From: a virus
Direction: 5' to 3' (one strand)
Length of the DNA stretch: 64,000 nt
Virus record (IMG/VR): IMGVR_UViG_3300043425_000676
Coordinates: 8,062 to 72,061 of that record
Each line of letters opens with the position of its first letter. The first letter of the stretch is position 1. The notes under the pieces were generated by a model, which saw nothing but the letters and a program-made list of their open reading frames with translations, made no database searches and was not told the DNA's origin. The position numbers and the translations under genes are program-made. Positions 10,157 to 62,300 of the stretch are shown here, in pieces.

Positions 10157-10605
10157 TATTCAATCTTTCCGTTTGGACGGTATGTTGACCAAGCCTCTGA
10201 AACTTGCCCTGGGCCTATGACTTCATGCGAAAGAGACAAGTTGCTGATTGCATCAAACTCGGATTGCGTGATACTCGATCCTTCGTCCAAGAGCAACGAC
10301 AAGAATTGAATCATGGCGTGGTCGCCAAAGTCTGACCCACCTTCACTTGGTCGCAACCACTTCAAAACTCGACTAACGAGAGCTTTGTATGAGCCAGCAT
10401 ATTGCTCGAACTTTTGAAGTATTGTTTCTGCTGTCATTGGCCCAAGTTTATTGTACAGCCCACGTTCTGTAAGAATCAGACTTGACCGAATCAATGGGCT
10501 TATCTCGGAGCATCGAATCGCACACGCATAATCGTTTCCTGCTTCCGCAAGCGCTTTTGCTTGCGGGTCAGATTCGATCAAGGCTTTGAGTTCTTGTGGG
10601 GTCAT
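10156..10605 (-). CDS. Hypothetical protein
   Basis: 149 aa, coupled ORF. Confidence 0.6.
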   Translation of the reverse strand: MTPQELKALIESDPQAKALAEAGNDYACAIRCSEISPLIRSSLILTERGLYNKLGPMTAETILQKFEQYAGSYKALVSRVLKWLRPSEGGSDFGDHAMIQFLSLLLDEGSSITQSEFDAISNLSLSHEVIGPGQVSEAWSTYRPNGKIE

Positions 10606-30145: not shown

Positions 30146-31516
30146 CTATTCAAACTGAAGCATATCGCTGCTTTTGCCGACTGCCGCATCGATTCGCGCA
30201 CGAGCAAGCTCGATGTATTCGGCTTCGCGTTCAATTCCGACGAACCGAAAACCTTCAAGAATAGCTGCCTTGCCTGTGGATCCTGAGCCGGTGAACGGAT
30301 CGAGAACAAGTCCGTTTGGCGGCGTGACAAGTCGGCAAAGGTAACGCATCAGGTCGGTCGGCTTGACCGTGGGGTGGACGTTCTTGCGATTCGTGACAAA
30401 TCTGCTAGTTACGTCATTTCCTGTATCCCACTCTGCGTTTTCGGGATTGCGCCTGCCGGACATAGACGACGATGCTTTCGAGTTAAAAGCATCCAAGCCT
30501 TCATCTCGGTCTTTCTTGCTTGCCTTCGCGCAATAGAAGAATCTGGCTGCGCTGCCGGAATCGCCTTCATGGAATCTTGGTGTGCCAAGCGTATTTGCCG
30601 CGCTGCCATAGATTTTGTTTTCCGTTCTTGGTTGGCCCGTAAGGCTTCCGCTTGTCGTCTCAGGAAACAACGCCAGCACCTCATCACTTCCATCGTGGAT
30701 GAAGTTTGCAGGGAAACGGCCCAATTGCTCAGCCTTAGCAACCGCTTCATTGCCGCGAGCCTTGCAAGCCTCGATCGCTTCGCTGTCGTGTTTCCAAGGC
30801 CTGTCCCACCCCTCTGTGGTTGTGCTGATCCTGCCGCCGCCTAGCTTGTCCCCGTTCGCCTCCACCCTACACCCATCGATATTCAACCCGCCCGTTCCGT
30901 GGGCTAGCACATTCGCGGCGACTGTTGTGGGAAAAGGCTTACGAGCCAATATGATTGGCTCGTAAGCTGGTTTGAGTGCAGTTCCCCAACCTTGCCATTG
31001 TGTAGCTGCTTCGGTTGTCGGGATTGTTGTGTAAGCGTTCCTGCCGGATTCATCACCCCAAGTGCCACCACCGTCTCGTTTACCATCTTCAAGGCGTAGT
31101 AGGCGATCACCCCCTCGTTTGAGTGGGCCGACCTGCCGTTCCGCCCCAGCGGCCTTGTCAATCGCCTTGCTCACATCCAGCGATTTCGGAAAACCCGAGC
31201 CATATACCCACATGAGGCAGTCTCTAATCTCCCAACCAGCATCCTCAATGGCGCAGGCGAGTCGGTGGTACGTCCTCGTACCACCGAACGCCAGAAGATG
31301 CGCGCCCGGCTTTGCGACCCGCAAAGCCGCTTCCCAAAACGGCATCCCAGGTACGCCGTGATCCCACTGTTTGCCCATAAAGGCCAACCCATAGGGCGGG
31401 TCGGTCACGATTGCGTCAACCGAACAGTCCGCAAAAGTTTTGAGTACGTCTAGGCAATCGCCATGGTGCAATGTGTAGCAATTCATCAAAATGTCCCGTG
31501 TAATTGCGCTACTCAA
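30146..31516 (-). CDS. Beta-class DNA methyltransferase (probably N6-adenine)
   Basis: VTDPPY catalytic motif, HPTVKP, LDPFTGSGSTG SAM motif. Confidence 0.95.
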   Translation of the reverse strand: MSSAITRDILMNCYTLHHGDCLDVLKTFADCSVDAIVTDPPYGLAFMGKQWDHGVPGMPFWEAALRVAKPGAHLLAFGGTRTYHRLACAIEDAGWEIRDCLMWVYGSGFPKSLDVSKAIDKAAGAERQVGPLKRGGDRLLRLEDGKRDGGGTWGDESGRNAYTTIPTTEAATQWQGWGTALKPAYEPIILARKPFPTTVAANVLAHGTGGLNIDGCRVEANGDKLGGGRISTTTEGWDRPWKHDSEAIEACKARGNEAVAKAEQLGRFPANFIHDGSDEVLALFPETTSGSLTGQPRTENKIYGSAANTLGTPRFHEGDSGSAARFFYCAKASKKDRDEGLDAFNSKASSSMSGRRNPENAEWDTGNDVTSRFVTNRKNVHPTVKPTDLMRYLCRLVTPPNGLVLDPFTGSGSTGKAAILEGFRFVGIEREAEYIELARARIDAAVGKSSDMLQFE

Positions 31517-32681
31517 AAAGAACGTTTTGTTTCAATTTATCAGCTTTTTGTACCGCCGAATCAATTCGATCGACAGCCAGCTTGATGTACTCTGGATTCA
31601 ACTCAATGCCGACGTATTTTCTGCCATTCAAGATTGAAACCTCGCCCGTGGTTCCGCTTCCGTTAAACGGATCGAGAATAACACCACCTTTGCGGGAGCC
31701 AGCAAGGACGCAAGGCTCAATTAGCGCAGGAGGAAATGTGGCAAAGTGAGCGCCTTTGTACGGTTTTGTGGTGACAGTCCAAACGGAGCGTTTGTTTCTG
31801 CCTTTTTCTAGGTCTACCGTCATGTCCCCAAAGTCGTTGTCGTAATTATGACCCTGCATACTTTCTTTGCTTCCTCCGCCGTTTTGAGCTCTTTTCCATC
31901 GGTATTTAGCTCGCTCGTGCGTTGCTTTGCTGCATGGCTCTTTGATCGCCTCATTGTCGAAGTAGTACCTTGCCGACTTGCTCAGCAAAAAAACGTACTC
32001 GTGAGATTTGGTACAGCGATCGGTGACGCTTTCAGGCATTGGGTTGGGTTTGTGCCAGATGATGTCTTGGCGTAGATACCAACCATCGGCTTGCAAGGCA
32101 AAAGCAACGCGCCAAGGGATGCCAATGAGGTCTTTGGTTTTTAGCCCAACAGGAGTGCCGATCCGAGGAACGCTATTCTGAGCCTCGGGGTTGTTTGCGC
32201 CAACACCAGGGTTTGTGGATTGCTGGCGATCCGCTTTTGTGCCAGTGGCATAACTATCCCCAAGATTCAGCCACAGCGTCCCGTCGTCTCTAAGCACCCT
32301 CCGGACTTCACGAAACACCGAAACCAATTTAGCTACATAGGCATCCGGTGTCGGCTCTAAACCAATTTGACTATCAACCCTGATAGCACCGCACTTGCCG
32401 CACTTATCCTTGTACGGAATCCACAAAGCGTCTTTGTCCAGTCTGCCCTCAGAAGTTCGACTCCCACCATCGCAAGCGTTTGCAGCCTCAGCAAGATTGC
32501 GCCGTTGACGAATCTCTTTTTCTCGATGATCGCAACCAGGGTCGCCACCCTCCCACTTTGCCGTCCCGTAATCGCGCAAGCCGAAATACGGAGGCGACGT
32601 TACGCAACAATCAACCGCCCCTTGCTCCATCGATCGAAGCACAGACAAACAATCACCGCAATGCAATGTGTAAGGTTTCAT
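31509..32681 (-). CDS. Beta-class DNA methyltransferase (probably N4-cytosine)
   Basis: VTSPPY, IIWHKPNPMPESV.DR, HFATFP, LDPFNGSGTTG. Confidence 0.95.
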   Translation of the reverse strand: MKPYTLHCGDCLSVLRSMEQGAVDCCVTSPPYFGLRDYGTAKWEGGDPGCDHREKEIRQRRNLAEAANACDGGSRTSEGRLDKDALWIPYKDKCGKCGAIRVDSQIGLEPTPDAYVAKLVSVFREVRRVLRDDGTLWLNLGDSYATGTKADRQQSTNPGVGANNPEAQNSVPRIGTPVGLKTKDLIGIPWRVAFALQADGWYLRQDIIWHKPNPMPESVTDRCTKSHEYVFLLSKSARYYFDNEAIKEPCSKATHERAKYRWKRAQNGGGSKESMQGHNYDNDFGDMTVDLEKGRNKRSVWTVTTKPYKGAHFATFPPALIEPCVLAGSRKGGVILDPFNGSGTTGEVSILNGRKYVGIELNPEYIKLAVDRIDSAVQKADKLKQNVLFE

Positions 32682-33979: not shown

Positions 33980-34018
33980 GAAATTCCAAAATATTTTGCT
34001 ATTTGGGGTTGATTCTAC

Positions 34019-34047
34019 TTGTCGATATGCTCTCCATGGAGTAGAGT
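34019..34047 (+). promoter_or_regulatory. Rightward early sigma70-like promoter
   Basis: TTGTCG-N17-TAGAGT with AT-rich upstream tract, ahead of the first plus-strand gene. Confidence 0.5.
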
Positions 34048-34109
34048 ACCCATGGGGGCATCGTGCCCCGCAGTAGTGAGACACTGTTTTTTCTAGGAGA
34101 TTTCTGATT

Positions 34110-34541
34110 ATGGCGAATTTTGATTCCGATCCGCGTGATTTTGCTCTGGAAATGGTCGAAAACGAGGTAGTTTCGGCAGACCATTTATTGCTTTGCTGCC
34201 TCAAGTACATGAGCGCCGACGAACTTTCACCGCGTTTTGCTTGCGACGAGCCAGACCTTTGCATTGATTGCGGCGGTTCTCACATTGAGGAGGGCACCTG
34301 CCTGGGTTGCCAGCTCGCCGAGTGGCTAGACACCTTCGATGATTCAGAATACGACGTTTCCGCCATGCGTGACGATGTTTCTACCAACAATCTCGAAGTG
34401 GGAGACGATGACGCGGCGGAAAAATACCGCCATGAAAACATCGTTCGCGAGTCGATTGTCAATGGCAACTACACCCAAGCCAAAGAGCAGTGCCAACGCT
34501 TCGGGCTCGACTACGAGGCGATCCTAAGCGAATGCAACTAG
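34110..34541 (+). CDS. Acidic early protein
   Basis: TAGGAGA RBS; D/E-rich with CxxC...CxxC. Confidence 0.75.
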   Translation: MANFDSDPRDFALEMVENEVVSADHLLLCCLKYMSADELSPRFACDEPDLCIDCGGSHIEEGTCLGCQLAEWLDTFDDSEYDVSAMRDDVSTNNLEVGDDDAAEKYRHENIVRESIVNGNYTQAKEQCQRFGLDYEAILSECN

Positions 34542-34588
34542 ACTCGGGGGGGTTAGGCCGAGTGCGGAGGGGTTCGCCCCTCGTCCCC
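34542..34588 (+). ncRNA. Pistol-like ribozyme lacking P1, copy 1
   Basis: ACTCGG-GGGGG-TTAGG-CCGAGT-GCG-[GAGGGG TTCG CCCCTC]-GT-CCCC. Confidence 0.65.
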
Positions 34589-34632
34589 GCTGTCGCGTGA
34601 CAGCAAGCAACAACGAAACAGGAGAAACGACG

Positions 34633-34851
34633 ATGCCAAAGACCATCGACCAAACCAATCCAATCGAGCGCAATATCCGCGAAGCAATCGCCAGGATGAA
34701 GCGATCTAAGACTACTGGCGCCTCCATGGATTGCCTTTTCTTGAACACTCGTACTGCTGGCGTGACCGTGCCGGTCGGCATGTACCGTGCCGAGTTTGAG
34801 AAGCTCGCCCATCGCGTGGCAAGGGATCTGGCGTTCGATCTTTACTGCTAG
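34633..34851 (+). CDS. Small early protein
   Basis: ACAGGAGA RBS, start MPKTID. Confidence 0.7.
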   Translation: MPKTIDQTNPIERNIREAIARMKRSKTTGASMDCLFLNTRTAGVTVPVGMYRAEFEKLAHRVARDLAFDLYC

Positions 34852-34892
34852 CAGGGGTTAGGGCTAGTGCGGCGCCTTCGGGCGCGTCCCCT
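34847..34892 (+). ncRNA. Pistol-like ribozyme lacking P1, copy 2
   Basis: GCTAGC-AGGGG-TTAGG-GCTAGT-GCG-[GCGCC TTCG GGCGC]-GT-CCCCT. Confidence 0.65.
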
Positions 34893-34958
34893 CGTCGACA
34901 CTGTGTCGGCGGATCACCGCAGGCGTGAGACCCTGCCAAGCTTTCAGGAGAATTGACC

Positions 34959-35417
34959 GTGAAGACTGTATTTGAGACAAGATTTGCCAAAGTCGGCGAG
35001 ACAGAGGAACACTACGGCGGAGTACGTTCAGCCCGAGTCGGCGGAGTCGATGACGCGAAGGAATTTGCGAGAAAGCACCTCGTACCGTATTTTGCCGACA
35101 AATGCGATGCAGAGGAATTTTTGATTGTCACCCTAGATACCCAACACCGCCCAATTCGGATTGTCCGCGTTACTCGCGGGACGGTGAACGCAAGCCTAGT
35201 CCACCCCCGAGAAGTGTTCCGTCCAGCTATTGCCGACTGTGCGGCTGCGATGTTTCTGGTTCACAATCACCCATCTGGCGATCCGACCCCTAGTCAAGAA
35301 GATCGAGCGGTTACACGGCGTCTCAAGGACGCTGCCGCGATCATTGGTATATCGATCCTAGATCACCTGATCGTCGGAGACACCATCGTCTCACTGGCTG
35401 AATACGGCTGGTTTTAG
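34959..35417 (+). CDS. radC: RadC-like JAB/MPN domain protein
   Basis: GTVNASLVHPREVF, HNHPSGDPTPSQED, LDHLIVG; CAGGAGA RBS. Confidence 0.92.
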   Translation: MKTVFETRFAKVGETEEHYGGVRSARVGGVDDAKEFARKHLVPYFADKCDAEEFLIVTLDTQHRPIRIVRVTRGTVNASLVHPREVFRPAIADCAAAMFLVHNHPSGDPTPSQEDRAVTRRLKDAAAIIGISILDHLIVGDTIVSLAEYGWF

Positions 35418-35419
35418 TC

Positions 35420-35525
35420 CCTGTTCTCCCGCAAGTCTCGGCACACTTGCGGCAAAGTCTCACGAGTGCCGACGCGGTTGGCCGATGCGATATTCGGCTG
35501 TTTTTTCCACCAACACGAGAACAGG
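35420..35525 (+). promoter_or_regulatory. Structured intergenic RNA with pseudoknot and RBS-sequestering stem
   Basis: CCGCAAGT/ACTTGCGG stem whose loop TCGGCAC pairs with GTGCCGA; CCTGTTCTC pairs with GAGAACAGG over the SD. Confidence 0.55.
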
Positions 35526-36597: not shown

Positions 36598-36602
36598 AGC
36601 AA

Positions 36603-36661
36603 GACGTTTCGCGCACGAGACCACTGGCTTGCTAGTGGTCGACTGCCTGCAGCGTCGCAGG
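36603..36661 (+). ncRNA. Unassigned pseudoknot RNA motif, copy 1
   Basis: GACGTT pairs with loop AGCGTC of hairpin CTGC/GCAG; GCA-CGAG-[stem]-CGAC-TGC. Confidence 0.6.
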
Positions 36662-36692
36662 GTATTCAAGGCTTTTAATGGAGATTTGTGTT

Positions 36693-36874: not shown

Positions 36875-37156
36875 ATGAAATACTTCATTGAGCGAACTAT
36901 TGGTGCTCATTCCGACACACTCGAAAAGCTCTGGGAAGGTAATGATTTACCTTTGTTCAGCCGCAATGGACATCCGTATTGCTTCAGTTGCTACAGAGAA
37001 GCTCAAAGAGTGCTCTGGAGACTTCAAGCACGATACCCCGTAACGATCGATACTCCTAGATCACCATCTGTGCCAATTGATTATTCCTTGGAAAGCATAG
37101 ACACATCGGCAGCTCAAGAGTACAGACCGCAACAACACTTAGGCATGTTTGTTTAA
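36875..37156 (+). CDS. Early hypothetical protein
   Basis: 93 aa, GAGG RBS. Confidence 0.6.
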   Translation: MKYFIERTIGAHSDTLEKLWEGNDLPLFSRNGHPYCFSCYREAQRVLWRLQARYPVTIDTPRSPSVPIDYSLESIDTSAAQEYRPQQHLGMFV

Positions 37157-37213
37157 GACGTTTTGCGCCTGAGGGGGCTCGCCCGAACCCCTAACGGCCT
37201 GCAACGTCGCAGG
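37157..37213 (+). ncRNA. Unassigned pseudoknot RNA motif, copy 2
   Basis: GACGTT pairs with loop AACGTC of hairpin CTGC/GCAG; GCC-TGAG-[stem]-TAAC-GGC. Confidence 0.6.
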
Positions 37214-37240
37214 AACACAACACAACAGGAGAACAGAACG

Positions 37241-39582: not shown

Positions 39583-39639
39583 TTCACGCTGACACGGTGT
39601 CGGCAATGTTTGTTGTTTGTTTTTACAGGAGATTTGATT

Positions 39640-50353: not shown

Positions 50354-53300
50354 TTATTTTTGATTCAATTTTTGCGTAATTTGACGCAATCTTTCGACCA
50401 AAGCGTCCTTCATCACAAGTGCCTGACCCTTGCGCTCGTACAGGGTTTTGTTGTTCCTGCGCCAATATGCCAGCAGTAGCAGCCTTGCCTCTTCTGGCCC
50501 GATCTTGCCGTCGATCATGGTCTTAAGTGCCTTGTCTCTCTCGGCAACAGCTTTGGCGTAGGTCGTATCGTCCTGGAAGTCCTTGCGTTTTGGATTGGCT
50601 GAAGCAGAGTAGACCAGCGATTGTTTGCGTTGCTCTCGGCGTTGCTTGAATCGCTCAAGTTCATCCTTGGTCAAGAAGTCCTTGTAGCCTGGATCCTTCG
50701 AGTCCCATTCCATCGCTTCGAGATCCTTCTCGATCAGCTTTTTGCGTTCCTCTGCGTTGGCGTTCTTGTACTTGGTCTTAGGCCCATAGGTTCCACCACT
50801 CATCCCGAGAATGTTTAGCATGGCGATCGCTGGGCCTTCTGGCACACCACGAGCCATCAGCGTTTCAACGACTTCCCGTCCAGCCAGAGGGATGAACAGT
50901 CCCGTGGTAGCCGTGGCTACCGTTGCTTTGTTGCCAACAACATCTTCTCCAGCAATGATGTTGATGCCAGCGGCGGGGATCGGTGCGAGTTTCTTGCGGA
51001 TAAAGTTGGCTGTCAGATCGAACGTACTATCCTGACCGTACTTCTTCTTCTCTCCCCGAATGTCAATAATTTCGCCTTCCATCGTCTTTTTCTGCCCAAG
51101 TCCAACTTGAGAAAGGAATGTGACGATTTGACCAAAGCCGGACAGTGGATCGATTCGCGTCTCTCCAATCTTGAGTTTCATGAAGTCCGTCGATCGCGGA
51201 TCCAGTTCGACGGTTGGCGATTCCTCATCATCGTCGTCGTACAGCAATCCTCCGAGTGCCACGGCGGTTGCTAAGAATCCGGCAACACCAAGGGCGTGTC
51301 GAGCGTATTCCATGGCGATGAGCCGCTTAACCCTGCCGGAAACCTTGGCATCCTGAAGCATGTAGAACGGCAACCCTAGATATGCGAAGCGAGACGCGAG
51401 GTATCTAGGTGCGAACAAGACGGTGCTGAGGTTTGCCGCGACCTTGTTATAACTCCCGAAGTCCCCTCTACCTGTCGATACGTTGATAAAATTGGCAATC
51501 GCCTTGGCTTCGTCCAGCGTCACCTGACCGTTTGCCCCGAGGGTATCGACGAAATAGGTAAACAGCCGGAACCGCAAGCCGTTGAGGTAGGTCGTGTAAG
51601 CCCTGGCGGACATTGCCACGGGTGTCAAAACCGCCTTGCTGAACTTGTTGATCTTTGTGCCCTTCTTGCCGATGCCGTCCCTTGCCCATCGACCCATGTA
51701 GGCTTCTTCTTGGTTCTGGATCCTGCCAGCACTAGCCGTAACCTCAAGTTTGGCTTGTACCGCAAACGAATAGAGCCGGTGCTTGCTCATCTGTTCGGCG
51801 ATATTAAACTCTTCCTCTTGGCTGAAGATAGCCCGTCGCATTTCCTTTGCAGCCTCTCTGGCAAGCATTGGGTGAGCGAACGTCCCTGGGCCGCCCTGGC
51901 GGAACACCGCCGACAAGTCCATGGATGTCATAATCGCTCTTGCCAGGAATGAAGTCTCCCGAGCCCAGTCGAAGACCCTCTCTTTGGGGCTCAACTGCGA
52001 CAATCGCCATTCTGCCGCCAGGCGGAAGAACTCCTCTTTTATTTCCTCAAGTCGCCTCTTGTGCTTGGTTATCTCGTCGCTTTCGAGTGGGGCTTTCTTG
52101 GGTTTTGCTCCAAAGTAGCCGTGCGCCATGCGATCTTCGTAATCCGCAATCCTGTTTTTCAGGTTGGCGATATAAGCTACCTCTGCTCGCTCTTGAGGGC
52201 TCATCTTGGGGTTCTGTTGTGCCTTAATCGCGTCTCTCTGAGCACGCAACGATTCGAGCTCTGCTTGCTTGGCTTTGAGTTCTGCGCTCGTTACGGGCTC
52301 AGCACGACCTCTAGGGGAGAAATCTCCGGTGCGGAGTTGTTCCGTAACCCTTTCGATCTCCCGATCGGTAGCCCTGAGAGCTGCTGCAAGCCGTTGCTCC
52401 TTGGTCGCTCCCTGCCGAGGAAACATCTCGCGGTAGTCTTTGGTGACTTCCGCTAGGATTCGCTTTTGCTCAGCCAAATCCTTGTCTTTGCTTGCCAAAT
52501 CGACCTGCGTCTTGGTGATCGGCTTGCCTTCAGCCATAGCCTTCCGCAAATCCCTGATGCGGTTTGCCGTTGCCCGCATTGCGGCACCAATTGATGTCTT
52601 CAGGAGTCCCTGTTCATCCTCGGTGTAAAGGTTACTATTGCGCTTCATCTCGTTGACTTGTCGCACTAACGCTCGCTCATCGTCGGACATTTCGCGACGC
52701 TCGACACCCGTTGCCTTGGGTCGAATACCGGCTTCCAAATCCTTGATCTTCGCCATTTGGAGCAACTGACCGTTGATGTCGCGTTGCAATCGCTTGTTTG
52801 CGTCTGGAGAAAGCGGGGTAAATTGCCCATATCCGGTCAGCGCGTCCATTGTCTGCCGCTCGGTGATCTCCGGGTCGATCTCCTGGAGCGATCTCCAGAC
52901 GGCATCTAGGACGACTTCAACGCGATCTTCTTGATCCGCCGTGACGATTCCGCTTTCAATAATCGCCATCTCGATCTCACGGGCGATACGGGTAAGCCCC
53001 TCAACATCCCCAGGGCTGACCATCGGAATCGGGATTTCACCTTGCGCCTTGATCTTCTCCCATGCCGTCGCAAACGCAGCCTGAGCCTGAACAGGCAGTT
53101 CGCCACCTATCTCTTTGCGCAAATTGGCTAGCAGTTCACCGTAGGAGAATACGCCAGCTTCGACGTATGCCATGACGACACTCTCGGCTTCCTCAGCCAT
53201 TCGTTCGTCTTCGGTCTGCATCAGCGTGTCAGAGCCACCCTTGGGCTTGAAGATGCTTGAGAACTTCTTGACGAAGCTCTGTACCGCCGTGGCGGCTTTT

Positions 53301-56300
53301 TGCCGTGGCTCGCTCTTGGTCTTGGTCTTGGGTGCTTTCTTCAAGTCATCGTCGACCACTTGTCGCACACCGTCTTGCCGTTGAAGGTCGGCAATCACCT
53401 GCTCGGCTTTCGCCAAGTCGCCCTGAACCTTCGCCAGTTCCGCAGCCAACTCAGCGATTTGCCTTGTCTGCTCTGCGCTAAGTCTCTCACCGCCGTTGGC
53501 AGCCCTGCCCCGACGCAACAACGCAGCACGAGAGAAATCCGATCGCAAGGTGATTTTCCTGGCTCCAAATGCCCTTGCTTGCAGGGTTCCGATCTTTTTG
53601 TCGACCTTCTCCATTTCCTCCATGGCATCCACTATCAGGTCAACTTCCCTGAGTGCCTTGGCTGCGGCAACGCTGTCTTTTCGGTCTTTGGCTGCAAACA
53701 ATCGATCTTCAGCGGCTTCGCGAGCGTTTTCCAGCCCCCGGTAGTGCATTTGCAAAACAGCTACTTCAATCTGGTCTGGGGATCTCAGTTTGTCGTCCAG
53801 TTCTTTAACGAGTCGATCGCCGAGGGTAGGATCCTGTCTGAGCCTGTGCCCAGCTTCCTCCAGCCACTCATCCATTGTCTCGGATTCTGCATCCACCAGC
53901 CCTGGCGACCCTCGAAGCAGAGCCATGTAGTTCGCCACTTCGTTTTGGATGCTCGTCACTGGATTTGCAGGACGCAAGACGGGCTCGCCCCTGGAAACAG
54001 GCTCGCCGCCCTTGCCGCCACGCTGGTCGGCTGGCAACCCTCGCTGAACCAACTTGTCGAACAGATCGCGGATTTCCTTGGGGAGAGGCGTTCCGGTGAT
54101 CTCTTGCACACCGCTGTAGATTTCTCGCATCCAACGGGAGATCTTTTGGAACAGCGAATCCAGGACGCTATTCGGGGAGTCACCCTCGTACCAATACTGC
54201 TCCCACATCTTGGCGGCTTTTTCTTCCGCCTTCACATCCCACTTCGTTACCCATTTGCCATTCACAAAGCTTCCAGCACCGCTCGCCTTCTCTAACGCTT
54301 CGATTTCCTCATCGGTGATGTCGGCACGCTTTTCGGCTGGCACGCTCTTGTCGAGCAGGAACAGTCGCATCGGATGGAAGAACTCGTGGATGAACGTCGA
54401 GAAGTCAGCCTTGTTTGTGGCTCCGATCAGTGCTCGATGTGCGCTGATGAACTTCGTCCAGCCCTTGACGCTGCCGCCTTGCTGTTGGTTCTGCATCAAG
54501 ATGTTCGGGTTGTTCGGGTCGAACATGCCGCGATTGCCGGTGGCGGACTTGATTTGGGTTGGGCGTAACGCCACCCACACATCCTTCCCTACGCCTCCAA
54601 CACCTTTGAATCGCTCGTCTTGAACTCCGTCAAAGCCAGCCTCTTCAAGCTTCTCAATGACAGCATTATTAAATTCCACCCTGTCTTCAATGCCTAAACT
54701 TACTACTTCTCTTCGGGCAGCAGCCAGATCCTTCAAGCTAGCTGGGTTTTTGACACTCAAGTAGAACGGTCTTGTTTTACCAAGAGCTAGTGCGCCAGAT
54801 TCTTCAGAAGTAAACCAAAAACCCGGAGATACACTGTAATTTGCGTCGAATACATCAAACTCTTTATCTGTTCCGTGGTAAACAACCAGAGGTTTTCCGT
54901 CCTTGTCCACCACCTTGCTATCGCCAAACCATCGCACAAAATTCTGCCATGTCGGCTTGCCGTTTGGAGCGATCTTTTCGCCCCACTTGTCTCGAGCGTA
55001 TGACACGACTGCAGGGCGATAGTCGCTCTCGTTGAACTTGTATCCTGACGGTTGATCGAAATCTTCTTGTGCCATCGCCTGCCCAGGCACCGGCGTACCA
55101 TACGGAGCAAACCCGATCTCATTGCGACCGAATGCCGTGATGTCTTCGAGCGTAATTCCAGCCTCGATCTGATCATCGGACAGCACCCTACCGAACGCCC
55201 TCTTTGCCATCGTGACAACTTGGTCGCGTGTGATGCCCGAGACTGCTGCCGCCTGCTGCACACCATCCATGCCTGCGACTTCTGCCGCTAAGCGAAGGAA
55301 ACGGCTCACCTGCAACGTGCGCTCGCGTCCAATGGTCTTGACCGAGTAGGCAACGAAGTCACGTAGATTGGTGATTCCAGCGTCCTGAGCGGCGATGGAG
55401 AGGTTCAACGCCTCCGACCACATATTCTCGTTTACGTCTGGTGCGGTCTGGTAAAGCGGGGGCGGTAGATTGCGCAGGTTGTCTGAAAGCTCGGCTTGAT
55501 TCTTTTCGTCATTAGCAGCTTTAGCTTCAACGTATATAGGTTCTCCTTCCTCGTTCAGAACCTTGCTAGCCTCAATCGCTACAGATTCGCCGTTTTCTTC
55601 GTACAAAACGTGCGTGTCAGATCTATAGCCAGTAACAGCATGTTCCTCGATGTCATAAGAAACATTTTCTTGCGCAGGCTCACCTGTCATTTGCTCCTTA
55701 AACATCTCTGCTTGCATGTCATCAACAGCCTGCCTACCTGAAGCACGCTTGCGCTTTCGAATATAAATTGAAGTACCGACTGGGGCTATATTCCTAAACC
55801 AAGACGGAGAGCCCTCTGGGTTTGCCTCGATCTCTGCGACAAGCGACTTGAGTTTCTTCTGCTTTATATCAAGCTGCTCCTGTCGCACAAACGGAAGCTT
55901 TGCAGACTCATTAGCCGACTTAACAAACGCCTGCTTTTTCTCAATCTCTGCGTTTTTGTTTTCTATTCGCTTCCCGAGGTTACGCAATAGCCCGTCCATG
56001 CTAGAAAACGAAGGCTTTATCTCGTAATATTGCTTCTCGGCAAACATCTGCTTGCCCAGTATGAATATGCCGATACCTCTGTACTCTGCGACCTTCTTCT
56101 TTTTTGCGTCTCCGGTCGCGAAGCTGGACACTGAGTACCTTTCGAAAAGATCTTGGAGTGCTTCCCCTATAGATTCAGCACCTCTGATCTCTTTATTGGG
56201 AAACCCAGCGACATCACCAAGAGTCATAACTGGCTCTGGAACCTTGCCGTCCTTGTCGGCCTGCGGCTTTGAATCGCGGTAGGTTTTTTGCATCTTGGAA

Positions 56301-59300
56301 AGTTCATCGATGTCTTTTTGCAATCTTGGTATGTCTTGCGTCGACTGATTACGAGCCTCCCATAGCGTGTCCTGGATAGTCCTATAGTGCCTATCTCTTG
56401 CTTGCTCGAGTTTTTGAATTTCTCTTTCTAGCTTGAAACGCTGCTGAATACGAGGGTCGCCAACCGCCGCTGCAAACGTAGATTCAAAACCCCCTTCACC
56501 TTCTTCGTCCATGTCGACATCGCTCATGTCGATGATTCTTTCGTCTCCAACATCGTGCATGAATCTATAGATAAACCTGTCTTTTGTTAGCAAAACTTGC
56601 CAGCGTCGACCATCCTGCGGGCCTTCTGTCAAATATCTGTGCTCATGGACAGTGTTCCATCGATTCCCTTGCCTGTGACCTCGACCATTCCTTTGCTCAA
56701 GCGAACCAGGCATCCAAGGAGCGTCAAGATGGTGCATAGCGACAAGATTTTCTTGAGCGTTGACTCCAGTTCCAAGAGTCTCTGTGCCTCCAATCGCAAA
56801 ACGTATTTCGCCTCGATTCATGGCTTTCGCTGCTTCAGATCGCTGCTCCTTAGACATGGCGGAGAATATGGCTATCTCCTTTTCTGCCACTCCCTCTTCT
56901 ATCAGCCTGCGCTTGATTTCCTTCGCTAAGTTGTAAACCCTAACTCTTTCTTTGATAGGCTTTCCGTCGTTGTCCCTACCAACAACCCTTTCAGACCAAT
57001 CGGAGTGCCCTATCTCCATGAATATCATCTGTGTTGCTTTTGGGTGCTGATTGTAATAGTCCATGGCATTTACAATCATCTTGTTGATTTTTAGTCTTGG
57101 ATCGCGAGGGTCTACGCTTCTTGGATCAACTCCATCCATAAGCCTTGGATCCAGAGCCATCTTAACCCCTTCGTTGTTTATGGTTAGGGGGTTGTACTCC
57201 CTGGTCTTCATCATCTCATATTTCGTTTTCCCCTTTGCAGCCATAAGCTGAGAGTATCGTCGCTTCAAATCGTCGCTCATTCTTTTTTGAATGGGCATCA
57301 TGTCTAGCGTTTCATTGTGAACCTGCTTGTACGGTCTGCCGATAATAGGGTCGCCTTCTTCGACCCTTCCGTCTCTTGTTGGGCGAGGAACAAACTCCGG
57401 CATTTCATTTGCAAACACAGTGTCCATGTATTGCCCGATCGAAGCTCGCAACTCTGGAAGATTGACAAAGCTTGTCAGTCTTTCGAACTCTTCGTATGTC
57501 CCTCCGGCAGAAAGCTCGTCACTCGTTTCAGATGTAGCGAACGTGCTGAACCACCCATCCCACTCTTTTACACCAACAGCCTGCATTTCTTCTGGCATAA
57601 TAAAACGCTGCATGTTGTAAACTTCGTTTAGCGTGTTGGTTATAGGGGTGCCAGTGAATAGATAGACACCTCTTCCATTTTGCGTTCCCCGAATATAGTC
57701 AGAAAGCAGCATCAAGGAATTTCCGATATTGCTAGCTTGCTTGTTTAGTCCCTTGACCTGCTGTCTTGTTGCCAATGGGATCTTTTTGAAGATATGCGCT
57801 TCGTCAACCATAAGCATGTCAATCCCCATGTCTTCAATGAATATGGTTGATTCGTTTGCTGCATCTTTTTGCGCTTCAACTATCCTCTCCCTCAACCGCA
57901 TGCGTTCTTTTACAAGTTCCTTCGCCGTTCTTTGCTTGAGTTTCGCCAGTTCTTCTTTTCCTACATCGTCTAGGTTTGTTGGCATTCGACCCTTGAATGG
58001 ACTGTCATCTTCTTCAAATGCTTCTAATGCAGCCGCCTCCAGTTGATCCATTTGCTCCCGGAGCAATTTCTCTAGTGTCTCTGGTCGCATCTTCAAATTT
58101 TTAACAAGCGAATGCGGGATCACTATCAAATCCCAATCCTCCGTTGCGATCGAAGCCATAGCCTGACCCTTGTTATCAGAGTCGAGATTATCAACGTACA
58201 GTATCTTCGCACCAGGATACGCCTCTTGCGCTTCTCTATACACAGCCTGCGAGTTTGCGTTATGGGCGAAAAGTACGGGTTTGTTCGCCAACCTTAGCCG
58301 CCTAGATTCAATCGCAATAGATGCCATTGTAAGCGTCTTTCCGGTTCCGACTTCATGCGCAAAAAGCCCCTTGCCGGAAACGATAGCCCTGTAAACTGCC
58401 GCCTCTTGGTGCTTCCTCAGGGAAAACGGATCACTCCCTCGCTGAAGAGCAAGACCTTCAAACAGCAATGGGACTTTGATGTTCCTCCAGTCTGGAGTGA
58501 CAACTGATCTGTAGTCTTCATTGTAAGCATGGGAAAGCCTAGCGATTCTGTCCGGAGTTTGCCATATCCAGTCTTTGAACTTGTCTTTCAGTTCATCGAT
58601 CTTGGCGTTCGCCTCTAATGTTGCCGTCTCGTCTTTGTGCGAATTACCTTCAGAATCTTTGTAGAAAACGGAAACCCTTCCGTTATTCATTGCTGCTGCT
58701 ACCATCCTGGAAAACACTACTTCGCTGTGTCCGTGTGTAACAACCCCAGGAGACCTGTTGGCTGAGGTTGAAAAATTAACCTTCCATCCACGGGCCGCCT
58801 TCATCACCTGCGTGTTTTTTACATCTTCACCAAGCAGATCTGCGAAAAACTGCGAGTAATCTTCCGCTGTAACCCATGGAGCCCCGAGACCAACCTGAAT
58901 CTGGTTGTAGACAAGCGGTTCCGGCAGAACAGCCTTAGCAGCATCTATGGATTTCTCTAGTCCATCAACACCCTCGTTTTTCGCAGCTTCCAAACTCCTG
59001 ATCTTTCTTGCTATGTTACCAGACAAGAAAACATCTGCTGCATCGTAGGTGTCTTCGCCTGTTTTGTATATCAAATCAGCCTTTTGAAGTTCTTCAACAA
59101 CATCGCTTTTTGGTTTTCTTGCAAGCCTTGCAACCTCGTCAAAGTCGACATCGATTGAATCGTTTCTGGCTAACGCGAAAGCGTCAACTATATCCAGCTT
59201 TTCTCCGGCGCGTGGAGCTTGCCGAACGGTTGTGCGAGTAAAAACAGGTCGCTTTTCGTATTCTCCACTTGGTGTTAGGCTCTCAAGTGATGCTACTGCA

Positions 59301-62300
59301 TTCCCTATGGCATCCCCAGAATCTTTCAAGTACCCAATCGACTTGCTAGTTGAGATTGGGCCGTACTTCTGCCTAAATGAATCGTAAGCCTTGTTTAAGG
59401 CTTCTCGCTGCTTAGATGCGTCATCACCTCTCCCTTGCACCTCAAGCACTTGCTCTAGCGAATCCCTGACGTTTAACAATGCAACCATCTCATCGCGAAT
59501 CTTCTTTATGGTTGCTTGAGTGCTGTTTGCGCGATACCAACTCACGTAAGACTTGAGAGGCATCAATTGCTCTCCCTTGGCAATGTACAATTCATTATTT
59601 TGATGAACGACCGTGTTTTGCCGCAGCTTCTTCTCGTTCGGTCTCTCCTTGCCCTCGTTTTTAGCGCGATCCGTATTGATAATACCGGAAGGAACCGACT
59701 CGACTGCTTCTCTCCACAGTTCCTCAAGGTCTGATGGTTTGTTGACTATCATCCCTGGTCGACCGCTAGTAGTTCCACTGCCATAGTCCAAGGTGCCTAA
59801 GATGTTACCTGGGTTCTTAGTCCAGTATGCGTTTACAGAAACCTTAACCCCAGATGGAGTGTCTACTTCTACGACATCAATCCAATCGTCGTTGTTTGGC
59901 GATGGTTGCTCTCCTGGCTTCCTTTTTCTGATAATGATCAAGTCGGCTACAACCTTTGTTTTCGCATAGCGTTCGAAAGCTCCAGTTGGAAACCGAAAAG
60001 CAGCAACCAGATCACCCCTGTCGGACAATTGCTTTCTAAGAAGCTTAGCTTCTTCTTTCCCGTCCATTGTCATGTTGGATGTAACGAAAACCATCAACCC
60101 GCCTGGTTTTGTTTGGTCAATCGCCTTCCTAAAGAAATAGTTGTGTATCGAATACGGCATTCGATACATACGGTCTGAAATCTTGTAGTTTCCAAATGGA
60201 ACGTTTGTTGCAACAACATCATAAAAATCGTTCGGTGTCTTACTGTCCTGATATCCTTTTTGCTGTACGTTTATCTGCGGATACAAGATTTTTGCTATTC
60301 TAGCGGTAGCCTTATCTAGCTCTATTGCCGTAAAGCTGGTTTTCGACATCATGTCGCGAGGCATAAGGGCTGCGAAGTTGCCAATTCCAAACGAAGGCTC
60401 AAGAAACCTGCCACCCTTGAACCCCATCTTTTCAATCATTGACCAGATGCCAGAAACAACTTCTGGATCTGTGTAGTGAGCATTAGGAATGGATTCTTGT
60501 GCAGATCTCCATTCTTCCTCACCTAAATGCTCTCGCAGCCATTCGTTTTCAGACTCCCAGCCCTTTTTTACTCTTGGGTTGTTCCAGTTTCCTTGGAATA
60601 ACTCCTGCCCAAAAGCACCCCATCCAATGTATGAGGCTAGAACTTCCAGGTCTTCTTGCGTTGGAGGTCTGCCTGATTCTTCGAGCTCTTGAGACAACTC
60701 CAAAGCTTTTATGTTGCGATCGAACTTGTCCTTTAATCCACGACCTACAATGATTTCAGGGTTTGTAAGATGAAAATTGGGTCTTGTTGACTCAGGAGCC
60801 AAATCTAATCCTGCTCCATCTCCAGGTTTTGTGAATCCTCCTCCGGTTCCATCAGCAGCGACCCCTGGCAATGCAGTTGCGCCTCCGACATCGACATCTT
60901 GGATGTTGCCATCAGGTCTGCCACTTCCTTGCTGAATCGAGTCAGCACCACTATCGCGTACCCCTCCAGTATCCCCTGTCGCTTCAGTCGCTTGACCATC
61001 CTCGGGCTGTACTCCATCCAATTCCTCAGAAGCGATTGCACCAGCGGGCTCTTTTCCGTCAATGTCGCTTCGCTCAACTCCTTCTTGATTTGCTCCGTCT
61101 GCTCCTGCGTAAAACTGTTTTTCATCTACCGCACCCTTTAAGAAATCCTCCACGTTTCCAGCGGGATCCTGCACGAAACCACGGATGTTTAATGCTTCCC
61201 AACCGTCTTGCATGTACTGCGAAAACTCCCTGGCGAACGCATCGCCAAAATTCTCCACGATTGCTTCGACATAACCCTTGAAAGTCTTGACACCTGCCTT
61301 GGTGTACAAGTAAGCCACGCGAACTACCTCCGCAGAAATCTCTGGATCGACTCCAGACATCAGCTTGTTTCTAATCTTCTCCATTAGCGCCGCAGCAGCA
61401 TCATGCGCTATCTGCATGTCAGACTTTGCCTCTTTGAGAGTCTGCTCACTCTTGCGTGTCGGTTTTTTAACTGGTTTTTTAGGAAAGTTGGCGATAGCAG
61501 CAGTTATTTGCTCCATCAGCGTATCGAGTATAAGGTTTTGCCCTACTGGAAGCGTGTCGCTTATACCCTCTATTTTTTGATATGCTTCGTAATCCAGGGC
61601 GATATCGACAGTTTCGTACTCTCCTGCGTAAATCCTGTTGAAAAGATCACCGTACATTGGGGCCAGCGTATCGATAGTTTCTTGAATCCCCTCTGCGTCC
61701 TCGGGATCCCTTGACCAACCCAACAGTCCGTTAAGCGCTCGATCTCGATAACGGCGAACAAAATCCTGGCGGTCGATCTCCGCCGCCATTCCAGGCATGA
61801 TCGGAAGCACATACTGGCCTAGCTTTGTCTTCTCTGGCTCCTTGCGCCCCTTCTTAGGCGATGGCTCAGCCTTCGGCTTCTCCGTAGCCGTAATCGCATC
61901 AAGAGCCTTCAAAGCAGCCTCCACCCCCTCTGATCGCTTTGGTTGTTCTGCGACTGGCCCAACTGCCGCTGGCTTCGCCTCTCCAGCGAGTTTGCGTCCT
62001 TCGCTATCCCACTTCGCTACCGCCTCATTCGTGCCCTTGACGGTCTTTGGTAGCTTAACGCCTGTCCTAGCCTCAAACTCGCCTCGGTACGCCTTGTTGT
62101 TAATGCCCAACGCCTGAGCGATCACTGTTCCGCCAGCGTTCCACAACTCCTCGAACTTCGCTTGCGACTTTGCTGGCAACGCACGAAAATCCTTTGTCTT
62201 GCCTTCTGCGGACGGCTGCTCGGCTGGCTTGCTAGCCTCCGCTTCCGCCTTGCGACCCGCCTCGATCTTCATCTCCTCCATAACGGCGCGGATCTCTGTG

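What the first reader, a model, noticed from the sequence alone, without database searches (positions are those of the whole stretch)
34542..34892. Two minimal pistol-type ribozymes lacking stem P1
Seen: both copies read [6 nt]-P2-TTAGG-[6-nt complement]-GCG-P3(TTCG)-GT-P2'. The 6-bp helix (ACTCGG/CCGAGT vs GCTAGC/GCTAGT) and P3 (GAGGGG/CCCCTC vs GCGCC/GGCGC) differ in sequence yet stay paired, while TTAGG, GCG and GT are invariant. Established: pistol (env25) has P2-UUAAG(33)-6-nt pseudoknot-G40C41G42-P3-G|U-P2', the same spacing and catalytic residues. Difference: the pseudoknot partner joins P2 directly, with no P1 and no AAA linker, giving a ~46-nt RNA; a separate hairpin follows each copy. 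Inference: a P1-less pistol variant that I do not know to be described, cleaving at 34583|34584 and 34886|34887 just after stop codons.
Basis: partly seen in the sequence, partly recalled or inferred. Interest (0 to 1): 0.92.

Follow-up and report, generated by a model that had tools for sequence, protein, structure and literature searches.

The report
Pistol ribozymes lacking stem P1
Two 45-47-base RNAs between the first genes of a phage keep the catalytic core and three of the four helices of the self-cutting "pistol" ribozyme but lack its first hairpin; they belong to a conserved phage family that probably cuts a multi-gene transcript into single messages, though cutting is untested.

Summary
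Window 34542-34588 and 34847-34891 both read PK5'(6 nt)-1 nt-P2a(4)-TTAGG-PK3'(6)-GCG-P3 hairpin-GT-P2b(4). They are the only two such sites in the 72-kb phage contig.

The design recurs. A sequence pattern that says nothing about the pseudoknot gave 34 matches in viral contigs, and 31 have a perfect 6-nt pseudoknot partner exactly 1 nt upstream. The same pattern gave 60 matches in prokaryote genomes, and only 2 have it.

On 36 distinct members all 539 pair cells are standard pairs, and 11 of 15 pairs show changes on both sides. This count has a selection caveat.

Rfam's Pistol model aligns only its positions 23/24-68 (P2 to the 3' end) at 20-27.5 bits, below the 34.5-bit cut-off.

P1 cannot exist, because only 1 nt separates the pseudoknot strand from P2. 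The A-rich linker is also absent.

The elements start at the upstream stop codon and precede the next ribosome-binding site.

Best reading: a natural P1-less pistol variant cleaving at 34583|34584 and 34886|34887. I found no publication describing it. This scan has noted the same class before on other DNA. Cleavage itself is untested.

The parts
34539..34541 (+). TAG stop codon of upstream ORF 34110-34541, immediately 5' of copy 1
   Evidence: open frame of 153 codons ends at -3 relative to PK5'
34542..34547 (+). Copy 1, pseudoknot 5' strand ACTCGG
   Evidence: perfect complement of 34558-34563; covaries in family
34548..34548 (+). Copy 1, single spacer nucleotide (takes the place of P1 3' strand plus A-rich linker of canonical pistol)
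   Evidence: spacer length 1 nt in 36 of 36 aligned members
34549..34552 (+). Copy 1, P2 5' strand GGGG
   Evidence: pairs with 34585-34588
34553..34557 (+). Copy 1, loop TTAGG (aligned to UUAgG of the Pistol consensus; holds the purine-32 and G33 equivalents at 34556 and 34557)
   Evidence: Rfam alignment; purine at 32 per PMC6154101 section 2.3
34558..34563 (+). Copy 1, pseudoknot 3' strand CCGAGT
34564..34566 (+). Copy 1, invariant GCG (aligned to the GCG of the Pistol consensus; first G = equivalent of general base G40)
   Evidence: role of G40 from PMC6154101
34567..34582 (+). Copy 1, P3 hairpin GAGGGG-TTCG-CCCCTC
34583..34584 (+). Copy 1, G|T junction; predicted cleavage between 34583 and 34584
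   Evidence: aligned to the GU of the Pistol consensus; cleavage at GU junction per PMC4604425; inferred here
34585..34588 (+). Copy 1, P2 3' strand CCCC
34589..34604 (+). Facultative downstream hairpin GCTGTC-GCGT-GACAGC; no T run follows it
   Evidence: a clear hairpin follows 14 of 30 members, absent after all 5 copies in record G001
34620..34635 (+). AGGAG ribosome-binding site and ATG (34633) of the next gene 34633-34851
34847..34852 (+). Copy 2, pseudoknot 5' strand GCTAGC; contains the TAG stop codon 34849-34851 of ORF 34633-34851
34853..34853 (+). Copy 2, spacer A (could pair with T34892)
34854..34857 (+). Copy 2, P2 5' strand GGGG
34858..34862 (+). Copy 2, loop TTAGG
34863..34868 (+). 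Copy 2, pseudoknot 3' strand GCTAGT (G-U at the outer pair)
34869..34871 (+). Copy 2, invariant GCG
34872..34885 (+). Copy 2, P3 hairpin GCGCC-TTCG-GGCGC
34886..34887 (+). Copy 2, G|T junction; predicted cleavage between 34886 and 34887
   Evidence: by alignment with copy 1 and the family; inferred
34888..34891 (+). Copy 2, P2 3' strand CCCC
34892..34912 (+). Facultative downstream hairpin (stem around GACA-CTG-TGTC)
34944..34961 (+). CAGGAG ribosome-binding site and GTG start (34959) of the RadC/JAB-like gene 34959-35417
   Evidence: (phrog_10276, E 4.8e-34)
35479..35508 (+). Terminator-like hairpin plus T run that would close the three-gene unit holding both ribozymes

Best explanation
Both elements are natural variants of the pistol self-cleaving ribozyme in which the P1 hairpin and the A-rich linker are replaced by a single nucleotide. 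The 5' pseudoknot strand therefore runs straight into P2. The RNA folds as a compact double pseudoknot of 45-47 nt, with a 6-bp pseudoknot, a 4-bp P2 and a 5-6-bp P3.

Inferred mechanism:
- As in canonical pistols, the first G of GCG acts as general base, and a Mg2+-bound water near the purine of UUAGG acts as general acid.
- Cleavage falls between G and U of the P3-P2 junction (34583|34584 and 34886|34887).
- It leaves a 2',3'-cyclic phosphate on the upstream gene's mRNA and a 5'-OH on the downstream one.

Inferred role: each element starts at or across the stop codon of one gene and ends 17-60 nt before the ribosome-binding site of the next. The likely job is therefore to cut a polycistronic early phage transcript (genes 34110-34541, 34633-34851 and 34959-35417) into separate messages.

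Shown: the conserved structure, its homology to the pistol core, the absence of P1, and the genomic position.

Inferred: catalysis, the chemistry, and the role in mRNA processing.
For: (1) Architecture and recurrence.
- A primary-sequence pattern that leaves the upstream region free gave 34 matches in 19 viral loci. In 31 of the 34, a perfect 6-nt complement of PK3' lies exactly 1 nt upstream of P2a, with 12 different pseudoknot sequences.
- The same pattern in 596 Gb of prokaryote genomes gave 60 matches. 58 have at most 5 of 6 pseudoknot pairs and at most 4 P3 pairs. The 2 true members sit in one 9-kb contig.

(2) A purely structural descriptor, with loop, GNG and junction letters left free, found 37 sites in the loci plus the contig. 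34 of them read TTAGG/GCG/GT.

(3) Covariation.
- A1, 30 distinct members: 450 of 450 cells paired; 9 of 15 pairs changed on both sides; score 0.561 against 0.144 shuffled; 0 of 500 shuffles reach it.
- A2, 36 members: 539 of 539 cells paired; 11 of 15 pairs; score 0.641 against 0.155; 0 of 500.
- Sliding the 3' partners by 1-3 columns drops pairing to 40-61%.

(4) P2 covaries in scans that left P2b free.
- P2a GGGG goes with CCCC or CCCT.
- GGGA goes with TCCC.
- GGTG goes with CACC in 4 of 4 distinct P1-less members.

(5) Homology to pistol.
- RF02679 is the only ribozyme family matched. It aligns at model positions 23/24-68 without indels through the core, at 20.3-27.5 bits.
- Canonical pistols with P1 and an A-rich linker share the same pseudoknot sequences and the same GGTG-TTAGG core (L301 and the L299 group).

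(6) Specificity of model R1.
- 0 hits in 78 unrelated phage loci; hits only in the 2 closest relatives.
- No family hit in 748 kb around canonical pistols.

(7) Position.
- An ORF of at least 60 codons ends within -5..+3 of PK5' in 20 of 30 members.
- An SD-plus-start follows within 60 nt in 26 of 30.
- Canonical pistols in viral contigs sit likewise: 38 of 67 have such an ORF end, against 2 of 65 control positions.

(8) Copies cluster, 3-5 per genome within a few kb on one strand, in 5 of 5 other records searched.

(9) Published geometry. P1, the pseudoknot and P3 stack coaxially, and P2 lies beside and parallel to the pseudoknot (PMC11300833, passages; PMC6154101 section 2.3). P1 therefore caps one end of the stack, and removing it need not disturb the active site. 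This last step is my inference.
Against:
- In a canonical pistol, a mutation disrupting P1 caused a substantial loss of activity, and the authors call P1 very important (PMC4604425).
- The A-minor contact made with P1 in crystal structures (PMC11300833) has no counterpart here.
- No member reaches Rfam's gathering score.
- Nested-fold energies are no better than shuffles: z -0.38 and -0.34.
- P2 is nearly invariant (GGGG/CCCC) within the GC-rich clade, so its covariation rests on few events. For the GGTG clade the first scan specified both strands.
- Sequences entered A1 and A2 only if the pseudoknot paired 6 of 6 (filter), which inflates the 100% figure for that helix.
Confidence: 0.7

Rival explanations
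1. The RNA descends from pistol ribozymes but no longer cleaves. The conserved pseudoknot would serve another purpose after the stop codon, such as a protein-binding site, an mRNA-stabilising 3' structure, or a signal acting on the terminating ribosome.
For: - Disrupting P1 strongly reduced activity of a canonical pistol (PMC4604425).
- The PK5' strand overlaps or abuts the stop codon in 28 of 30 members.
- A sequence-conserved hairpin often follows.
- Cleavage is untested.
Against: - The nucleotides that stay invariant in 36 of 36 members (UUA-G, GCG, GU) are the ones aligned to conserved core positions of the Pistol model. A non-catalytic scaffold would have no reason to keep the GU junction and the G40 equivalent.
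- Canonical pistols in phages occupy the same post-stop position.
Confidence: 0.15
2. It is an active pistol, but not a self-sufficient 45-47-nt one. The hairpin 3' of P2b, or a trans factor, would take over the stacking role of P1, making this a rearranged rather than a minimal ribozyme.
For: - Both window copies and 12 further members (14 of 30 in all) are followed within 5 nt by a stable hairpin.
- The 3' end of P2b lies next to the 5' end of P2a, which is 1 nt from the pseudoknot end where P1 would stack. This is inference from the geometry described in PMC11300833.
Against: - The hairpin is missing after all 5 copies of record G001 and after several others. There the ribosome-binding site follows within 17-19 nt.
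- The distance from P2b to the hairpin varies from 0 to 5 nt.
- The AT-rich clade (L281, L282, L288) shows no such hairpin in the 25 nt printed.
Confidence: 0.1
3. It is a chance or convergent pseudoknot unrelated to pistol ribozymes.
For: - The best Rfam E-value for the window copy is only 0.24 in a 601-nt search and 2.5 in a 6.3-kb search.
- Copy 2 is not reported at all.
Against: - Same helix order, the same spacing without indels, and the same conserved letters as the Pistol model.
- An invariant C-G at the second pseudoknot pair in both forms.
- Canonical relatives with identical pseudoknot sequences.
- 58 of 60 chance matches to the primary pattern lack the structure.
Confidence: 0.03

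Closest known systems
Canonical pistol self-cleaving ribozyme (Rfam RF02679; Harris et al. 2015, PMC4604425)
   Same: - 6-bp pseudoknot to the P2/P3 junction.
- 4-bp P2.
- UUARG loop.
- GCG.
- P3 hairpin.
- 2-nt GU junction.
- Invariant C-G at the second pseudoknot pair.
- Phage location directly after stop codons, often in several copies.
   Different: - No P1 hairpin. In canonical forms the 6-nt pseudoknot strand is the loop of a 5-bp P1.
- No AUAAA-type linker; a single nucleotide stands in its place.
- 45-47 nt here, against 68 model positions.
- Scores below the family's gathering cut-off.
Pseudoknot-containing hammerhead ribozyme (Zhan et al. 2024, PMC11300833; abstract and passages read)
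   Same: The same connectivity of helices as pistol, and a 6-bp pseudoknot stacked between two helices.
   Different: - The hammerhead core loop (C-U-G-A-N-G-A type, 7 nt) and its GAA-type junction are absent here.
- The loop here is UUAGG (5 nt) and the junction is GCG.
- That ribozyme also keeps the extra stem-loop equivalent to P1.
Theta ribozymes, a minimal HDV-like subfamily in gut phages (Kienbeck et al. 2024, PMC10879173; search listing and start of abstract only)
   Same: A pared-down natural subfamily of a known self-cleaving class, found in phage genomes.
   Different: A different fold and a different context (next to tRNAs); no sequence relation.

Membership tests
Pistol ribozyme (RF02679) | P1 hairpin whose loop supplies the 5' strand of the pseudoknot | tested here: not met
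   Only 1 nt lies between PK5' and P2a in 36 of 36 members. The sequence 5' of PK5' is the end of a coding region. Rfam model positions 1-22 are unmatched. The one full-length alignment (32.9 bits, L023) uses a chance upstream hairpin whose loop is not the pseudoknot strand.
Pistol ribozyme (RF02679) | A-rich linker between P1 and P2 (AUAAA-type in the consensus; A-minor triple with P1 in crystal structures) | tested here: not met
   A single variable nucleotide (T, A or G) stands in its place. The linker is seen in canonical viral examples and described in PMC11300833.
Pistol ribozyme (RF02679) | 6-bp pseudoknot with the junction linking the 5' strands of P2 and P3 | tested here: met
   216 of 216 cells paired; 4 of 6 pairs changed on both sides. 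31 of 34 unfiltered pattern matches have it, against 2 of 60 in the prokaryote control.
Pistol ribozyme (RF02679) | P2 helix enclosing the core, with the cleavage site at its 3' strand | tested here: met
   4 bp in all members. GGGG/CCCC, GGGA/TCCC, GGTG/CACC and GGGG/CCCT were found in scans with P2b free. The number of events is small.
Pistol ribozyme (RF02679) | P3 hairpin | tested here: met
   5 of 5 counted pairs changed on both sides, with no unpaired cell. P3 was not constrained in the scan.
Pistol ribozyme (RF02679) | Highly conserved core nucleotides (UUA-purine-G loop, GCG) at fixed spacing | tested here: met
   Invariant T12, T13, A14, G16, G23, C24 and G25; position 15 is G or A. 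They align without indels to UUAgG...GCG of the Pistol consensus. A purine at position 32 is per PMC6154101.
Pistol ribozyme (RF02679) | Two-nucleotide GU junction between P3 and P2, with strictly conserved length | tested here: met
   GT in 36 of 36 members. The rule on junction length is from PMC4604425.
Pistol ribozyme (RF02679) | Score at or above Rfam's gathering cut-off (34.5 bits) | tested here: not met
   0 matches in the window at gathering. 20.3 bits for copy 1; copy 2 is not listed. Relatives score 21.6-32.9 bits.
Pistol ribozyme (RF02679) | Mg2+-dependent self-cleavage at G|U giving a 2',3'-cyclic phosphate and a 5'-OH | not testable with these tools
A bench assay is needed.
Pseudoknot-containing hammerhead | Hammerhead catalytic core (7-nt CUGANGA-type loop and GAA-type junction) | tested here: not met
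   The loop is UUAGG and the junction is GCG by direct reading. There is no hammerhead match in Rfam scans at E up to 10.

The most novel reading that the evidence does not exclude
A self-sufficient 45-47-nt pistol ribozyme exists in nature without P1 or the A-minor linker. This would make it one of the smallest natural self-cleaving ribozymes and would show that P1 is an accessory of the fold, not part of the catalytic requirement. Its 5' pseudoknot strand covers the upstream stop codon. A ribosome terminating there would therefore unfold it, so cutting of the phage's early transcript could be gated by translation of the upstream gene.
Probability: 0.15. Interest if true: 0.85.

Novelty: new variant of a known kind. 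Interest (0 to 1): 0.62.

Why it matters
P1 is written into the definition of the pistol class and was reported to be very important for activity (PMC4604425).

- If these RNAs cleave, the minimal pistol fold becomes a roughly 45-nt double pseudoknot. That bears on structure-function models of the class and offers a shorter module for RNA engineering.
- Homology searches miss them: every member is below Rfam's cut-off. Pistol ribozymes in phage genomes are therefore under-counted.
- The fixed position, from stop codon to ribosome-binding site with several copies per operon, gives a clean system for asking what self-cleaving ribozymes do in phages. That question is still open.

Tried and rejected
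- N4-like idea. I asked whether the 3-nt-loop hairpins after the ribozymes are hairpin promoters of a virion RNA polymerase. I dropped this because the 4504-aa ORF (50354-63868, minus strand) is a polyvalent protein (ART-PolyVal, SNF2, Helicase_C), not such a polymerase.
- Third copy. I see no TTAGG/GCG core there, and model R1 finds only two sites in the contig.
- Thermodynamic support. Nested MFE folds are no more stable than shuffles, so this gives no evidence either way for a pseudoknot.
- Bare motif. TTAGGN6GCG alone is not enriched in the window.
- RadC-like neighbour as a route to more members. 78 of 80 loci are unrelated phages without the RNA. They served as a specificity control.
- Reciprocal search. 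R1 does not recognise canonical pistols. This is expected, because R1 models the adjacent pseudoknot strand and a GGGG P2.
- Host. The only prokaryote-collection members lie on a 9-kb contig binned with a Crocinitomicaceae MAG. I do not treat this as a host assignment.
- RNA evidence for cleavage.
- Literature. Searches returned no paper describing a pistol without P1. One search was noisy, and none of its 20 listed papers holds 'pistol'. The 2015 discovery paper and the 2019 pistol/hammerhead structure paper are not held.
Full report
**What is there.** The window is bases 8062-72061 of a 72,061-bp virus record. PHROG matches confirm a phage: two DNA methyltransferases, a RadC-like 'DNA repair protein' and several phage families of unknown function.

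At 34542-34588 and 34847-34891 the plus strand reads, in both copies:
- a 6-nt strand
- one nucleotide
- GGGG
- TTAGG
- the 6-nt complement of the first strand
- GCG
- a 5-6-bp hairpin closed by TTCG
- GT
- CCCC

. The 6-bp helix and the hairpin differ in sequence between the copies but both stay paired. A descriptor for this arrangement finds only these two sites on both strands of the contig. A covariance model built later does the same (65.1 and 64.3 bits).

**Is it more than chance?** The bare motif TTAGGN6GCG is not enriched (3 found, 1.31 expected). Nested folds are no more stable than shuffles (z -0.38 and -0.34). The case rests on comparison with other sequences.

- I scanned viral contigs with GGGGTTAGG-N6-GCG-N12-26-GTCCCC, which leaves the upstream sequence and the P3 interior free. 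This gave 34 matches in 19 loci.
- In 31 of the 34, a perfect 6-nt complement of the N6 lies exactly 1 nt upstream of GGGG, using 12 different sequences. Two identical matches have it at 0 nt with a poor P3, and one has none.
- The same pattern scanned over the prokaryote genome collection gave 60 matches. 58 have at most 5 of 6 pseudoknot pairs at that position and at most 4 terminal P3 pairs. The two that have everything lie on one 9-kb contig. This is a natural null for the pattern.
- A purely structural descriptor, with the loop, GNG and junction letters left free, returned 37 sites. 34 of them read TTAGG, GCG and GT.

**Covariation.**

| Alignment | Members | Cells paired | Pairs changed on both sides | Covariation score | Shuffled score | Shuffles reaching it |
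|---|---|---|---|---|---|---|
| A1 | 30 distinct | 450 of 450 | 9 of 15 | 0.561 | 0.144 | 0 of 500 |
| A2 | 36 | 539 of 539 | 11 of 15 | 0.641 | 0.155 | 0 of 500 |

A2 adds L184, two members from L129 and three from an AT-rich clade. Sliding the 3' partners by 1-3 columns lowers pairing to 40-61%.

Two caveats apply. Sequences were admitted only if the pseudoknot paired 6 of 6, so the unbiased figure for that helix is the 31 of 34 above. P2 was fixed on both sides in the scans. I therefore ran scans with the 3' strand of P2 left free:
- With GGGG, the family members carry CCCC or once CCCT. 14 new loci were returned and 1 was a member.
- With GGGA, the only member carries TCCC.
- With GGTG, all 4 distinct P1-less members carry CACC.

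P2 is thus supported by compensatory change at two positions, but by few events.

**Relation to pistol.**
- Rfam finds nothing in the window at gathering thresholds.
- With E-value thresholds, the only ribozyme family matched is Pistol RF02679. Copy 1 scores 20.3 bits over model positions 24-68 of 68. Relatives score 21.6-27.5 bits over positions 23/24-68.
- The alignments run without indels from P2 through UUAGG, the pseudoknot strand, GCG, P3 and GU to the end of P2. The P1 and linker part of the model is left out.
- One relative reaches 32.9 bits full-length only because an unrelated hairpin at the end of the upstream gene is taken for P1. Its loop is not the pseudoknot strand.
- Canonical pistols fetched from viral contigs show what is missing: a 5-bp P1 whose 6-nt loop is the pseudoknot strand, then an ATAAA-type linker, then P2.
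- Both forms keep an invariant C-G as the second pseudoknot pair.
- The P2b-free scan also brought in canonical pistols with P1 and an A-rich linker. These have the same pseudoknot sequences and the same GGTG-TTAGG core as P1-less members (L301 and the L299 group). This is what descent of one form from the other predicts.
- The hammerhead alternative fails by direct reading: the loop is UUAGG and the junction is GCG.

**Why P1 is truly absent.** The spacer between the pseudoknot strand and P2 is 1 nt in all 36 aligned members, so no 3' strand of a hairpin can fit there. Upstream lies the end of a gene. A stop codon falls within -12..+8 of the element's first base in 28 of 30 members, and an open frame of at least 60 codons ends there in 20 of 30.

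**Would it fold?**
- Published descriptions say that P1, the pseudoknot and part of P3 stack on each other, and that P2 lies opposite and parallel to the pseudoknot. The linker makes an A-minor triple with P1 (PMC6154101 section 2.3; PMC11300833 passages).
- From this I infer that P1 caps the end of the stack far from the active site.
- I also infer that the 3' end of the pseudoknot's 5' strand and the 5' end of P2 lie at about the same level, so a one-nucleotide bridge is plausible.
- The strict 1-nt spacer fits a tight geometric constraint.
- I could not check distances in a structure.
- Against activity: a P1-disrupting mutation caused a substantial loss of activity in a canonical pistol (PMC4604425).

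**Context and likely role.**
- In the window, the two copies separate three small genes: 34110-34541, 34633-34851 and the RadC-like 34959-35417.
- No sigma-70-like site was found between these genes, and a terminator-like hairpin with a T run lies at 35479-35508.
- An SD-like site plus a start codon follows within 60 nt in 26 of 30 members.
- The closest relatives keep a copy just upstream of the RadC-like gene, although the protein is only 64-82% identical.
- Five other virus records (50-73 kb) each hold 3-5 copies within a few kb on one strand.
- Canonical pistols in viral contigs sit in the same place. 38 of 67 have an ORF of at least 60 codons ending within -12..+8 of P1, against 2 of 65 control positions. 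Some occur two or three times within 2 kb.
- The simplest reading is self-cleavage at the G|U junction. This would leave each upstream gene with its stop codon and a structured 3' end, and each downstream gene with a 5'-OH leader. That is mRNA punctuation of an early operon, and it is inferred, not shown.

**The downstream hairpin.** Both window copies are followed by a hairpin. A clear one (at most -5.5 kcal/mol, starting within 5 nt) follows 14 of 30 members, often with a GACA-NNN-TGTC-like core. None follows the 5 copies of record G001, where the ribosome-binding site comes 17-23 nt after the element. No T run follows the hairpin. It is therefore not part of the catalytic unit. Its role is open; it could shield the new 5' end, insulate folding, or bind a protein.

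**Specificity and breadth.**
- Model R1 gave no hit in 78 unrelated phage loci (1.06 Mb searched in all, with hits only in the 2 relatives).
- It gave none beyond a 12.6-bit chance match in 748 kb around canonical pistols.
- The GC-rich GGGG clade comprises about 30 distinct copies in 16 viral contigs in this collection.
- A separate AT-rich clade (P2 GGTG/CACC, loop TTAAG or TTAGG, U-G at the base of P3) has the same P1-less design. One of its members has a P3 extended by a long insert.

**Prior knowledge.**
- Eight full-text searches and the papers read gave no description of a pistol without P1.
- A 2026 preprint lists RF02679 as the only Rfam pistol family (10.64898/2026.03.07.710320, passages).
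- Subscription papers and all supplements were out of reach.
- This scan's own earlier notes report the same class on other DNA (e1-5973984, e1-5319485, e1-5952281, e1-6157333). These are not independent evidence. One of them gave me the lead to the GGTG clade, which I then tested myself.

**Verdict.**
- A real, conserved structured RNA: about 0.97.
- Homologous to the pistol core: about 0.9.
- An active, self-sufficient ribozyme acting in mRNA processing: about 0.7.
- Classification: a new variant of a known kind, because two defining features of the family (P1 and the linker) were tested and not met while the catalytic core is intact.

Noticed in passing
window 36598-36665 and 37153-37222: A second repeated intergenic motif starts at or just after stop codons. 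Both copies share AAGACGTTT-GCGC-GAG, a variable hairpin, then CTGCCTGCA(G/A)CGTCGCAGG. No Rfam family matches at E up to 10. I read it only; it is already noted by the scan as e1-6211757.
   Followed up: partly
window 35479-35508: A terminator-like hairpin plus T run lies after the RadC-like gene. It would end the three-gene unit that holds both ribozymes.
   Followed up: no
window 50354-63868 (minus strand): A 4504-aa ORF has ART-PolyVal, SNF2-related, Helicase_C and ResIII domains. This is a giant 'polyvalent' phage protein.
   Followed up: partly
window 30146-31516 and 31509-32681 (minus strand): Two adjacent DNA methyltransferase genes (phrog_67, E 6e-75 and 2.7e-83) are transcribed away from the small-gene operon.
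   Followed up: no
window 33990-34100: An AT-rich stretch with TTG-type hexamers and a GC hairpin lies just before the first gene of the operon. The simple sigma-70 scan did not call a plus-strand promoter there.
   Followed up: partly
L296 (minus strand, about 640-760) = L305: A P1-less pistol-like member whose P3 is a 12-bp stem carrying an insert of about 45 nt, followed by GT and CACC. P3 evidently tolerates large insertions.
   Followed up: partly
L301 (minus strand, near 10469) and L299/L300/L302/L303/L306: Canonical pistols with P1 and an A-rich linker whose pseudoknot sequences (GCTTGG/CCAAGC and ACTAGG/CCTAGT) are identical to those of P1-less members. They are possible evolutionary neighbours of the variant.
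   Followed up: partly
L259 4620-6634; L239; L266: Canonical pistols also occur two or three times within about 2 kb of one phage contig.
   Followed up: no
L129 2551-2597 and 3496-3542: The only members found in the prokaryote genome collection lie on a 9-kb contig binned with a Crocinitomicaceae MAG. This is probably a phage contig caught in the bin. The window phage's genes carry strong AGGAG sites.
   Followed up: no
hairpins 3' of many members (e.g. window 34892-34912; L008 2598-2614): The downstream hairpins share a GACA-NNN-TGTC-like core with covarying outer pairs. One further copy, without a ribozyme, lies at window 39588-39604. Their function is unexplained.
   Followed up: partly
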